From the NCBI RefSeq assembly GCF_009914755.1, contig NC_060941.1: DNA of 64,000 nucleotides. One strand, given 5' to 3'. Shown here one piece after another: positions 3,640-6,541 of the stretch. The number at the start of each line of letters is the position of its first letter. Within the stretch, counting starts at the first letter, position 1. This DNA is from the human T2T-CHM13v2.0 reference genome, Homo sapiens. The notes under the pieces are model-generated. The model was not told where the DNA came from and searched no databases. It saw only the letters and a list, made by a program, of their open reading frames with translations. A program made the translations under genes and the position numbers.

Positions 3640-3850
3640 AGTCTGCAGAGGTTACTGCTGTCTTTTTGTTTGTCTGTGCCCTGCCCCCAGAGGTGGAGCC
3701 TACAGTGGCAGGCAGGCCTCCTTGAGCTGTGGTGGGCTCCACCCAGTTGGAGCTTCCCGGCTGCTTTGTTTACCTAAGCAAGCCTGGGCAATGGCGGGCG
3801 CCCCTCCCCCAGCCTCGCTGCCGCCTTGCAGTTTGATCTCAGACTGCTGT
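3640..3850 (+). promoter_or_regulatory. L1 antisense promoter (ASP) region, firing in BCAS3 sense direction
   Basis: Corresponds to about nt 400-600 of the L1 5'UTR, the established ASP location; activity at this locus is inferred. Confidence 0.7.
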
Positions 3851-4006
3851 GCTGGCAATCAGCGAGACTCCGTGGGCGTAGGACCCTCCGAGCCAGGTGT
3901 GGGATATAGTCTCGTGGTGCGCCGTTTTTTAAGCCGGTCTGAAAAGCGCAATATTCGGGTGGGAGTGACCCGATTTTCCAGGTGCGTCCGTCACCCCTTT
4001 CTTTGA
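3791..4006 (+). CDS. L1 ORF0 (71 aa), intact, in BCAS3 sense orientation
   Basis: gcaATGG strong Kozak; MAGAPPPASLPPCSLISDCCAGNQRDSVGVGPSEPGVGYSLVVRRFLSRSEKRNIRVGVTRFSRCVRHPFL*; internal donors CAG|gtgtgg (3896) and CAG|gtgcgt (3981). Confidence 0.88.
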   Translation: MAGAPPPASLPPCSLISDCCAGNQRDSVGVGPSEPGVGYSLVVRRFLSRSEKRNIRVGVTRFSRCVRHPFL

Positions 4007-4227
4007 CTCGGAAAGGGAACTCCCTGACCCCTTGCGCTTCCCAGGTGAGGCAATGCCTCGCCCTGCTTCGGCTCGCGCACGGTGCACGGTGCGTGCACCC
4101 ACTGACCTGCGCCCACTGTCTGGCACTCCCTAGTGAGATGAACCCGGTACCTCAGATGGAAATGCAGAAATCACCCGTCTTCTGCGTTGCTCACGCTGGG
4201 AGCTGTAGACTGGAGCTGTTCGTATTC

Positions 4228-4236
4228 GGCCATCTT
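4228..4236 (-). promoter_or_regulatory. YY1 site of L1 sense promoter
   Basis: AAGATGGCC on minus strand, intact. Confidence 0.85.
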
Positions 4237-4244
4237 GGCTCCTC

Positions 4245-4440
4245 AATTGTTTAACTTTTATATTTAAGCCTTTGATCCATTTTTGTATGTGGTATGAGAT
4301 AGGGGTCCACGTTCATTCCAGTCCAAATGCTTTTGCATTTGGATATCCAGTAGTCCCAGCACCGTTTGTTGAAAAGACTTCTTTCACCATTGACTTGTCT
4401 TGGTATTCTTGTTGAAAATCAGTGGACTTATAAATGTAAA
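4245..4440 (-). mobile_element. Old L1M ORF2 fragment into which the young L1 inserted
   Basis: Diverged similarity to antisense L1 ORF2 (tcccagcaccgtttgttgaaaagac). Confidence 0.6.
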
Positions 4441-6464
4441 TAACTGTTTTCTTTAAAAAAAGGGCTCAGACTTTTTATTTGTCCTTGCCAGGAGAAATAA
4501 GGCAAAGTATCACAGAGAGCAGTTCAGTTTTTTTGTTTTTTGAAATGAATTCAGGTCACCTCTCCATTAGGACCACTTTCTGGGAGGATGCCATCTAAAA
4601 TTGCATCATGCTTGTGTACCTTCTTAATTACTTTTTTAGTAATGGACAAATATAGTGTGCTTCTAAAAATTTTTTACCTTCATTTAAATTGGGAAATGAA
4701 TTCTTTTAACATCCAGTTCTCTTTGTCCAATAAAATTGTAAACATGTTAGAATTAGGCCTAGTATTATAGAGATTCATGTCCCCCCAACCCCTTCACTTG
4801 TTTTCAGACTTTACCTGGAGGCAAAGATTAATCTTTAAAAGAGTCATGCTTATAAGGTTGGGATGGTGCTGAGTGGCTTATGTTCTGCTGATTCCAGCTA
4901 TAAAGCATTCTTTTGGCAAGCAGGAAAACAGTTGTTTTCATTACAATATACTGTAATTCTTGAGGTCCACTGAACTCTAAAAATACGGACTCAAAAAATG
5001 AAATGAAGAATTGTAAACTGTGTTTTTCCTTAGGACCCTTTTGTATTTGTGAGGTTAAAGTGGTTATCAGAATTTATTGAGAGTTAGATTATTTAGTTTT
5101 AAAGCTAATTCAGGAGATTCTCTGTGTCTAATGTAACACCACTGTTCACAAGTACTTGGTTCTATTTTTCATGACGAATTTTAAAAGGGGAAAAACTTTC
5201 TTATAGATCATATTTATCCTCATTTCTCCAGCTCTGAAATTGTCAGCGGAATACATGTATACATACTCATATAAAATTATATTTTTAATGAATAAGATTA
5301 ATCTATTCAATGGTCTAATCTATTGTGTAAATACTACACAATTTATATTACAGTATGTTGTCTTTTTATAATTTTTAGTGTGTTTTTGTCCTATATATGT
5401 TTCCATAATATGCATTTAATAGATAATAGTAATATTACAGTTAACCTGAAGTCAGTTTTCCGGAAACCCTAAGTATTGCAAACATACTCCTTCAAACAGT
5501 AGCATGAATGAACAGTTTTTTAAAAAGGGAGCAATAAAATGAGAAAGCTTTTATTTTGTTTATGTGGACTTTCTTTTAGGGTCTGTCTCTTCTCTATAAG
5601 TTTATTATTTTCTTTTCAAGACGAAAATTCAAAATAGATGGCAGTTTAGGGAGCTAGGCTAAAAATGGCTGTGTACTGGAAGTGACAGTAAGGTGTGCTT
5701 CTTTAGTGCTTTTGAGCATAGCAATAGGAACATAGTCAGAATGACTAGGGAGTGGCAGCAGGGAAGAGTCAGCGGCGAAGAAAACCGATTCTTCAATTTA
5801 CACATCCCTGTAATCAAGTTGGAGGAAGATAGAAAATAAACAGTAAATATATGTCATAGAACAATTAACTGTTGTTATTGGCTAGAACTGCAAGCAAGAA
5901 GAATGATATTGAGTGAAATGTAAATACAAAGGATTATGCAGTTCCCTAACATCTTTCTGTGGAGGCAGACTTTCAGAGTTACTTGTCTTCATTGGCCTCA
6001 GTGAGGTCAAATACTTGTTCTTTTTCTCTCCTCATTGTAGTATCATGTCTGATAGTCTCATTTATCTTTTGCCTTTAAATTCCTGAACCCATCATATCAT
6101 TTCTCTCTCCTCTCCCAAAATTCTTCCTTGATTTATGAATGTTAGACTTAAAATGGCCCTGTTAACTTCATTCTCATGTTTAGGAATAACTGTATAAAAT
6201 GCCCAGTGTTTGCTGAAAGTGATGACCAGTTCTTTCCAGATTTGTTTCTTATTGGGACAGAGTTAAGCCAAAAGGAAACTAAATAGAGGGGGAAAAATGC
6301 ACCTTACTTAGCTAACAAAATAATGACTAGTGTTACAGGAATTTTATGTGAGACTTGAAAAAATATAAGCATTTGATTTTTCTGTTTTTCTGGCATCGAT
6401 ATATGATGCACCAACAGAAAAGTTATTAAGAAATTTCTCAATAGTGCCATTTGAAATTTTTCAG

Positions 6465-6541
6465 GCTGCTATCCATGTCCAGGGCCAAACATGAATCCTA
6501 TTGCTCTTGGGAGCCGCTGGCTTGCTTATGCAGAAAACAAG
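6465..6541 (+). CDS. BCAS3: BCAS3 internal coding exon A (77 nt, phase 1 to 0)
   Basis: tttttcag|GCTGC...AACAAG|gtaaga; translates (x)[25 protein letters not shown], which I recognise as BCAS3; frame continues into exon B. Confidence 0.95.

What the first reader, a model, noticed from the sequence alone, without database searches (positions are those of the whole stretch)
3791..6541. Intact L1 ORF0 whose first splice donor is in frame with the next BCAS3 exon: predicted ORF0-BCAS3 fusion protein
Seen: ORF1 and ORF2 of this L1 carry stop codons, but ORF0 (3791-4006) is intact with a strong Kozak. Its donor CAG|gtgtgg at 3896 falls after 106 coding nt (phase 1), and exon A, 2.6 kb downstream, is a phase-1 acceptor. 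The splice gives G+GC=Gly and reads [54 protein letters not shown]..., continuing through exons B-E. Known: the L1 antisense promoter drives ORF0 and can splice into host exons, and I recall BCAS3 being reported as an L1-ASP/gene-breaking locus (not verifiable here). Inference: a hominid-specific BCAS3 proteoform with its N-terminal part replaced by 35 L1-derived residues, expressed when the L1 is demethylated (germline, ES cells, placenta, tumours).
Basis: partly seen in the sequence, partly recalled or inferred. Interest (0 to 1): 0.8.

Follow-up and report, generated by a model that had tools for sequence, protein, structure and literature searches.

The report
Known L1-driven BCAS3 transcript, no fusion

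Summary
The sequence observation holds. ORF0 (3791-4006, 71 aa) is intact with G at -3 and +4. ORF1 and ORF2 carry premature stops. The donor after 3896 lies 106 nt into ORF0, and joining it to exon 6465 reads in frame with BCAS3.

This is the known L1PA2-BCAS3 chimeric transcript: 47 ESTs from this element in Criscione 2016 Table S1. Table S3 of that paper prints the EST sequences. Of 34 that hold the start of exon A:
- 28 use the second ORF0 donor, after 3981
- 4 use a donor after 4217
- 1 uses a donor after 3253
- 1 is unresolved
- 0 use 3896

The 3981 donor is phase 2, out of frame with exon A. ORF0 would then read 113 aa and stop in the next exon. Only 10 of 47 ESTs start at or upstream of the ORF0 ATG; the commonest start is 3830.

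Published annotation gives a 684-aa BCAS3 lacking its first 244 residues, and calls this the dominant transcript in most adult tissues.

Verdict: already known. A rare in-frame isoform is not excluded (about 7%).

The parts
1..4244 (-). Full-length L1 (L1PA2 by published annotation). It runs on to about -1789, before the window.
   Evidence: 5' end, poly(A) and 15-bp target-site duplication. Subfamily and hg38 coordinates chr17:60881440-60887474 come from the papers and were not re-derived here.
3336..4244 (-). L1 5' UTR, about 909 nt, which holds the bidirectional promoter
   Evidence: ORF1 ATG at 3335 and L1 5' end at 4244. 39 CpG, 57% G+C over 3336-4245.
2319..3335 (-). L1 ORF1, broken by one premature stop at codon 110 (3006-3008)
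1..2255 (-). L1 ORF2 (the part inside the window), broken by a premature stop at codon 321 (1293-1295). Two more stops lie before the window.
3791..4006 (+). L1 ORF0, intact, 71 aa, strong start context
   Evidence: No Pfam family.
3830..3857 (+). Main cluster of EST 5' ends (3830 x11, 3835 x2, 3841 x4, 3850 x1, 3857 x5), all downstream of the ORF0 ATG
   Evidence: Criscione 2016 Table S1. hg19 coordinates were converted with an offset calibrated on EST sequences.
3784..3786 (+). Minor cluster of EST 5' ends (5 ESTs), 5-7 nt upstream of the ORF0 ATG
3894..3902 (+). First ORF0 donor, CAG|gtgtgg, cut after 3896, phase 1. In frame with exon A but unused here (0 of 34 ESTs).
3979..3987 (+). Second ORF0 donor, CAG|gtgcgt, cut after 3981, phase 2. 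This is the donor actually used (28 of 34 ESTs).
4042..4050 (+). Donor-like CAG|gtgagg, cut after 4044. Best U1 complementarity of the five L1 donor sites compared, but unused (0 of 34).
4215..4223 (+). Cryptic donor GCT|gttcgt, cut after 4217. Used by 4 ESTs that start at 4049-4135. It carries a G at 4222 where 3 of 3 other copies have C.
3251..3259 (+). Donor CTG|gtgagg, cut after 3253, antisense to ORF1. Used by one placental EST that starts near 3153 and skips ORF0.
4245..4259 (.). Target-site duplication copy. The other copy is at -1800..-1786.
6465..6541 (+). BCAS3 exon A, the acceptor of all L1-initiated ESTs seen. ATG at 6475 is out of frame with weak context. ATG at 6491 is in the BCAS3 frame and is the start of the predicted truncated protein.
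   Evidence: The hub annotation lists it as a coding exon.
19390..19473 (+). BCAS3 exon B. It holds the stop of the out-of-frame ORF0 reading and matches BCAS3_WD40 profile positions 190-217 of 479.

Best explanation
This is the known L1-BCAS3 alternative promoter.

A full-length, coding-dead L1PA2 lies antisense in a BCAS3 intron. Its antisense promoter starts transcripts mostly at 3830-3857, downstream of the ORF0 ATG, and less often at 3749-3786. These transcripts splice from the second ORF0 donor (after 3981) to the next BCAS3 exon at 6465 and continue through the normal exons.

That junction is out of frame with ORF0. The productive reading is therefore N-terminally truncated BCAS3, started at the in-frame ATG at 6491. 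Published annotation gives it as 684 aa lacking residues 1-244. This cuts away roughly the first third of the BCAS3 WD40 domain.

In the minority of transcripts that carry the ORF0 ATG, ORF0 would read into exons A and B in the wrong frame and stop after 113 aa. In effect it is an overlapping upstream ORF.

Shown: transcript starts, the donor used, and the frames. Inferred: which AUG ribosomes use, and that the truncated protein is made.
For: **Junction**
- EST sequences printed in Criscione 2016 Table S3 read straight from L1 sequence ending TTTTCCAG into exon A.
- Of 34 cells holding the exon A start: 28 use this junction, 4 use the 4217 donor, 1 uses the 3253 donor, 1 is unresolved but ends in AG without the CCAG shared by the 3896, 3981 and 4044 donors, and 0 use 3896 or 4044.

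**Starts**
- Of the 47 ESTs from this L1, 10 start at or before 3791, 32 start at 3793-3899 and 5 start at 4009-4135.
- The coordinate offset was checked on nine EST sequences. It also places the commonest EST end exactly on the exon end at 41272.

**Frames**
- 3791-3981 is 191 nt, phase 2, giving a 113-aa product that stops in exon B.
- The ATG at 6491 is in the BCAS3 frame.

**Published readings**
- The predicted peptides start at the 6491 Met, with 'Partial match to ORF0' = 0.
- Lanciano 2024: the L1PA2 promoter is unmethylated in MCF-7, carries active chromatin marks and is bound by ESR1. Spliced reads link it to the closest BCAS3 exon. Five GENCODE transcripts are listed.
- Genome Biol 2026: ENST00000588874 encodes 684 aa lacking the N-terminal 244 and is dominant in most adult tissues.

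**Domain**
- Exons B and C match Pfam BCAS3_WD40 positions 190-274 of 479, so the start in exon A falls well inside that domain.
Against: - No protein-level evidence for the truncated BCAS3 was seen in any call. Use of the 6491 ATG is an annotation and a prediction.
- An out-of-frame ATG at 6475 precedes it in all transcripts, and the ORF0 ATG precedes it in about a fifth of them.
- Only 34 of the 47 ESTs could be read at the junction. The other 13 are not in Table S3, including the cap-selected AU123136 (start 3772) and DA739274 (start 3662).
- ESTs are shallow. With 0 of about 29 informative ESTs, use of the first donor at up to roughly 10% cannot be excluded (my arithmetic).
- The first donor is clearly competent elsewhere. 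In the same table about 29 EST cells from other loci are spliced at it: 76 hold the site, and in 47 of those it is read through.
- U1 complementarity does not explain the choice of donor.
Confidence: 0.85

Rival explanations
1. Transcripts that start upstream of 3791 use the first ORF0 donor (after 3896). They give an in-frame chimeric protein: 35 ORF0 residues, a junction Gly, then BCAS3 from the first full codon of exon A onward. By published numbering this would be about 728 aa.
For: - The arithmetic is correct, and the join is open through exons A-D.
- The start context is strong.
- 9 of 47 ESTs could carry the ATG in the mature RNA.
- The same donor sequence is spliced in about 29 EST cells from other L1 loci.
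- ORF0-exon fusions are a described class, from Denli 2015 as cited.
Against: - 0 of 34 readable ESTs from this locus have that junction, and 28 read straight through the site unspliced.
- All 4 ATG-containing ESTs whose sequence I saw use the 3981 donor.
- 5 of the 9 ATG-containing ESTs have only 5-7 nt of leader before the ATG. By established scanning rules this favours bypass of that ATG.
- The published table flags no ORF0 match for BCAS3 ESTs.
Confidence: 0.07
2. In the minority of transcripts that hold the ATG, ORF0 is translated through the 3981 junction into a 113-aa product: ORF0 residues 1-63, then 50 residues across the junction and out of frame in exons A-B. This product matters in its own right. 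It could be an overlapping upstream ORF that lowers translation of truncated BCAS3 and marks the RNA for nonsense-mediated decay, or a lineage-restricted microprotein or antigen. This adds to the best explanation rather than replacing it.
For: - Four ESTs seen in full carry the ATG and the 3981 junction: BG826672, DA385484, DA865923, DA717974.
- The frame and its stop in exon B were computed.
- The start context is strong.
- L1 chimeric transcripts are said to be able to encode tumour-specific antigens (passage).
Against: - About 19% of ESTs at most carry the ATG, half of them with a 5-7 nt leader.
- No translation data were seen.
- The out-of-frame tail has no family to support function, and ORF0 itself has no Pfam match.
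Confidence: 0.3
3. The L1-initiated transcripts are by-products of an open promoter and make no stable protein. Their effect, if any, is transcriptional, for example interference with or breaking of the full-length BCAS3 transcript.
For: - The truncation removes about a third of the WD40 domain profile. That could leave an unstable fold (inference).
- Two upstream out-of-frame ATGs precede the BCAS3-frame ATG in some transcripts.
- The locus is cited under the 'gene-breaking' model.
Against: - The transcript is reported as broadly expressed and dominant in most adult tissues, with a long open BCAS3 frame.
- It is spliced correctly through at least exons A-D in dozens of ESTs.
Confidence: 0.1

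Closest known systems
L1-BCAS3 chimeric transcript (Wheelan 2005 as cited; Criscione 2016; Lanciano 2024; Genome Biol 2026 TE-driven transcript ENST00000588874)
   Same: It is this locus. The published hg19 EST coordinates and hg38 L1 coordinates map onto window 3153-4135 and the 4244 L1 end. The EST sequences match the window base for base at the starts and at the junction.
   Different: Nothing differs in the element.
L1 ORF0 and ORF0-exon fusion proteins (Denli et al. 2015, seen only through citing papers)
   Same: A 71-aa antisense ORF in a primate L1 5' UTR, with two internal splice donors that can join downstream exons.
   Different: Here the donor in use joins the host exon out of frame, so no ORF0-host fusion with BCAS3 sequence results. 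Most transcripts also start past the ORF0 ATG. I could not see whether BCAS3 is among the 57 fusion loci of that paper, because it is not held.
L1-MET and other L1 antisense-promoter alternative first exons
   Same: A hypomethylated intronic L1 antisense promoter supplies an alternative first exon, and the product is a 5'-truncated host mRNA.
   Different: L1-BCAS3 is reported as dominant in most normal adult tissues, not mainly in cancers.

Membership tests
L1 ORF0 | Open reading frame of about 70 aa on the antisense strand of a primate L1 5' UTR | tested here: met
   A 71-aa ORF at 3791-4006 (+) inside the 5' UTR (3336-4244) of a minus-strand L1. It is 99% or more identical to 39 other copies scored in the same genome.
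L1 ORF0 | Two splice donor sites inside the ORF | tested here: met
   CAG|gt after 3896 and after 3981. The second is used in 28 ESTs at this locus. The first is used in about 29 EST cells at other loci.
L1 ORF0 | ORF0 protein is made | not testable with these tools
   No translation or peptide data are available here.
L1 antisense-promoter chimeric transcript | Transcription start inside the L1 5' UTR on the antisense strand | tested here: met
   46 of 47 EST starts fall at 3662-4135 and one falls at 3153, in ORF1. The published coordinates were mapped with an offset checked on EST sequences.
L1 antisense-promoter chimeric transcript | Splicing from L1 sequence into a host exon in the gene's sense orientation | tested here: met
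   All 34 EST sequences that hold the start of exon A join L1 sequence to it at 6465.
ORF0-host fusion protein | The ORF0 start codon is present in the spliced transcript | tested here: inconclusive
   10 of 47 ESTs start at or before 3791. One of these splices from 3253 and skips ORF0. Five have 5-7 nt leaders.
ORF0-host fusion protein | The observed junction keeps ORF0 in frame with the host coding frame | tested here: not met
   The observed donor after 3981 is phase 2 and exon A needs phase 1. The reading stops after 113 aa. The in-frame junction from 3896 was seen in 0 of 34 ESTs.
Full-length L1 insertion by target-primed reverse transcription | Target-site duplication, poly(A) tail, complete 5' end | tested here: met
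   A 15-bp duplication at -1800..-1786 and 4245..4259, a 12-T run (the complement of the poly(A)) at -1789..-1778, and a 5' end aligned with three other copies.
BCAS3 (Pfam BCAS3_WD40, PF21034) | The downstream exons encode the BCAS3 WD40 domain | tested here: met
   Exon B: E 1.1e-13, profile 190-217. Exon C: E 3.2e-32, profile 218-274 of 479.

The most novel reading that the evidence does not exclude
A rare isoform starts upstream of 3791 and uses the first ORF0 donor (after 3896). In L1-derepressed cells it yields a true in-frame chimeric protein: 35 L1-derived residues fused to BCAS3 from exon A onward. The EST data would miss it, because they bound its share of L1-BCAS3 RNA at only roughly 10% or below.
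Probability: 0.07. Interest if true: 0.4.

Novelty: already known. Interest (0 to 1): 0.15.

Why it matters
The locus is a good textbook case of a young L1 taking over as a gene's promoter. One paper reports the L1-driven transcript as the dominant BCAS3 transcript in most adult tissues, and it should encode a protein without the first third of its WD40 domain.

That is already in print. The specific new claim, an in-frame ORF0-BCAS3 fusion, is contradicted by the published transcript sequences.

The useful lesson for the scan is that frame arithmetic at an L1 ORF0 donor is not enough. ORF0 has two donors in different phases, and the one in use has to be read from transcripts.

Tried and rejected
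- **Papers not held.** Denli 2015 and Wheelan 2005 could not be read. Whether BCAS3 is in Denli's list of ORF0-exon fusions stays open.
- **Failed search.** One literature search failed on a too-short term and was not repeated.
- **Irrelevant hit.** PMC9380957 mentions BCAS3 only as a BCAS3-BCAS4 gene fusion.
- **Coordinate conversion.** Converting hg19 to window coordinates from the gene's start or end gave an offset about 85-89 nt wrong. I dropped it and calibrated on the EST sequences instead.
- **U1 pairing energy.** It did not explain donor choice. The values are -7.1 kcal/mol at 3896, -7.8 at 3981, -11.6 at 4044 (unused) and -1.8 at 4217 (used by 4 ESTs). I therefore did not use sequence-based splice scoring as evidence.
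- **Pfam on ORF0.** Nothing found.
- **PDB search with exon C.** Nothing found.
- **ERE scan of 3300-4700.** Only one two-mismatch site.
- **Age of the insertion.** Not testable, because no other primate genome is held.
- **Supplement look-ups.** The unresolved 34th EST and the 13 ESTs missing from Table S3 were not read.
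Full report
**What is in the sequence**

The + strand of 3791-4006 is an open 71-aa frame starting at an ATG with G at -3 and G at +4.

It lies inside the 5' UTR (3336-4244) of a minus-strand L1.
- The L1 is full length. Its 5' end at 4244 aligns with the 5' ends of three other copies.
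- Its poly(A) end lies at window -1789.
- The same 15 bp flank it on both sides, at -1800..-1786 and 4245..4259.
- ORF1 has one premature stop, at codon 110 (3006-3008).
- ORF2 has premature stops at codons 321 (1293-1295), 963 and 1247.

A donor CAG|gtgtgg follows 3896, after 106 nt of ORF0 (phase 1). Exon A (6465-6541) needs one upstream base to complete its first codon.

The ORF0 is not special. The same genome gave 1911 first-look candidates for these 216 nt, and all 40 scored were 99% identical or more. All 4 other copies that I read have an open ORF0 and identical donors at both sites.

**What the transcripts show**

The locus is in print. Criscione et al. 2016 (PMC4908685) name BCAS3 as the second most EST-supported L1 antisense-promoter transcript, with 49 ESTs. 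I saw main-text passages and Tables S1 and S3 of that paper.

Table S1 lists 47 ESTs from an L1PA2 at hg19 chr17:5896xxxx and 2 from an unrelated L1MA1 about 100 kb downstream. They are flagged 'previously identified' and 'detected in PacBio RNA-seq'.

Table S3 prints EST sequences, cut at 400 characters, for ESTs with a predicted peptide of about 100 aa or more. I used these to calibrate coordinates: window position = hg19 0-based start minus 58,960,590. The check held on nine ESTs whose first bases I matched to the window: 3751, 3786, 3804, 3835, 3857, 3865, 4049, 4052 and 4135. It also places the commonest EST end on the exon end at 41272.

**Junctions**

34 Table S3 cells hold the start of exon A.

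| Donor (cut after) | ESTs of 34 | Note |
|---|---|---|
| 3981 | 28 | L1 sequence ending TTTTCCAG |
| 4217 | 4 | these ESTs start at 4049-4135 |
| 3253 | 1 | starts near 3153, antisense to ORF1 |
| unresolved | 1 | preceded by AG but not by the CCAG shared by the 3896, 3981 and 4044 donors |
| 4044 | 0 | |

The other 13 of the 47 ESTs are not in Table S3, and I did not see their sequences.

**Frames**

3791-3981 is 191 nt, which is phase 2. Joined to exon A, ORF0 reads out of frame and stops in exon B after 113 aa.

The BCAS3 frame opens at the ATG at 6491. An out-of-frame ATG at 6475 precedes it, with T at -3 and T at +4, and opens a 46-aa frame.

The paper's predicted peptides for these ESTs all begin at the 6491 Met. 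Their 'Partial match to ORF0' column is 0 in every BCAS3 row I saw.

**Starts**

- 10 of 47 ESTs start at or before 3791: 3153, 3662, 3749, 3751, 3772, 3784 x2 and 3786 x3.
- 32 start at 3793-3899. The commonest starts are 3830 x11, 3857 x5 and 3841 x4.
- 5 start at 4009-4135.

One of the 10 splices from 3253 and so drops ORF0. Five have only 5-7 nt ahead of the ATG. By the established scanning model, such a short leader favours bypass of the ATG.

The four ATG-containing ESTs whose sequence I saw all use the 3981 donor.

Many of these ESTs have DA, DB or AU accessions. I recall these as oligo-capped full-length cDNA libraries, which would make their 5' ends true starts. That is recall and comes from no call.

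**Other published evidence**

- Lanciano et al. 2024 (PMC10879037; I saw main-text passages and supplement passages).
  - They describe this full-length L1PA2 at hg38 chr17:60881440-60887474, minus strand.
  - In MCF-7 its promoter is unmethylated, marked by H3K4me3 and H3K27ac, and bound by ESR1.
  - They list five GENCODE transcripts.
  - Promoter methylation ranges from 0.007 to 0.95 over 12 cell lines. I did not see the column header.
- A 2026 Genome Biology paper (PMC12924553; I saw passages).
  - ENST00000588874 starts in this L1PA2 and encodes 684 aa lacking the N-terminal 244 of 928.
  - It is the dominant BCAS3 transcript in most adult tissues.
  - The paper calls the insertion human-specific and absent in chimpanzee.
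- A 2011 review table cites Wheelan 2005 for BCAS3 as an L1 alternative promoter and gives its age as greater than the African great apes.

The two age statements conflict, and I could not test either.

Pfam places exons B and C at positions 190-274 of the 479-position BCAS3_WD40 profile. A start in exon A therefore removes about the first third of that domain.

**How it most likely works**

The L1PA2 antisense promoter acts as an intragenic alternative promoter. Its first exon ends at the second ORF0 donor. The mRNA encodes N-truncated BCAS3 from the exon A Met.

ORF0 contributes at most an overlapping out-of-frame upstream ORF, and only in about a fifth of transcripts.

The transcript structure is shown by the ESTs. 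The choice of AUG and the existence of the protein are inferred.

- The first donor is competent elsewhere. In Table S3, 76 cells hold its site and 47 read through it. About 29 are therefore spliced there, all from other loci. For the second donor the figures are 60 cells with the site and 12 read through, so about 48 are spliced, 28 of them from BCAS3. These are string counts on cut cells, so they are approximate.
- With 0 of about 29 informative ESTs, use of the first donor here at up to roughly 10% is not excluded (my arithmetic).
- Denli et al. 2015, which lists 57 ORF0-exon fusions, is not held. Its list may bear on this.
- Searches for ORF0 with BCAS3 (3 papers) and for 'L1-BCAS3' (1 paper) found no description of an ORF0-BCAS3 fusion in the passages I read. 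Supplements of other papers are not searched.

**Unexplained**

Donor choice does not follow U1 complementarity.

| Donor (cut after) | U1 pairing energy (kcal/mol) | Use in the 34 ESTs |
|---|---|---|
| 3896 | -7.1 | 0 |
| 3981 | -7.8 | 28 |
| 4044 | -11.6 | 0 |
| 4217 | -1.8 | 4 |

**Verdict**

The feature is already known, and interest is low.

Noticed in passing
window 4215-4223: This L1 copy has G at 4222 where 3 of 3 other L1PA2 copies aligned have C. That turns GTTCCT into GTTCGT, giving G at +5 and T at +6 of the cryptic donor after 4217. Four ESTs starting at 4049-4135 use this donor. ESTs from other L1 loci seen read through the C version unspliced.
   Followed up: partly
window 4042-4050: The donor-like site CAG|gtgagg after 4044, just past the ORF0 stop, has the best U1 pairing of the L1 donors compared (-11.6 kcal/mol) but is used by 0 of 34 ESTs. 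One EST starting at 4009 (CO249570) is not in Table S3 and might use it.
   Followed up: partly
window about 4077-4083: A 7-nt tandem duplication (GCACGGT) in the L1 5' UTR relative to three other copies, and a T at 4211 where they have C.
   Followed up: no
window 3153-3253: One placental EST (DA862438) starts antisense within L1 ORF1 at about 3153. It splices from CTG|gtgagg after 3253 straight to exon A, skipping the whole 5' UTR and ORF0.
   Followed up: partly
window 3958-3970: An imperfect oestrogen-response-element-like palindrome (two mismatches to a recalled consensus) lies inside ORF0. It is the only one at two mismatches or fewer in 3300-4700. Lanciano 2024 report ESR1 binding inside this L1 and just upstream of it.
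   Followed up: no
whole L1, window -1789..4244: Published statements on the age of the insertion conflict. One says human-specific and absent in chimpanzee. The other says older than the African great apes. The very short poly(A) (12 T) and the clean 15-bp duplication do not decide it.
   Followed up: no
outside the window, about window +103,600 (hg19 chr17:59064215): A second, older L1 (L1MA1) in BCAS3 also gives two antisense-start ESTs from spleen.
   Followed up: no
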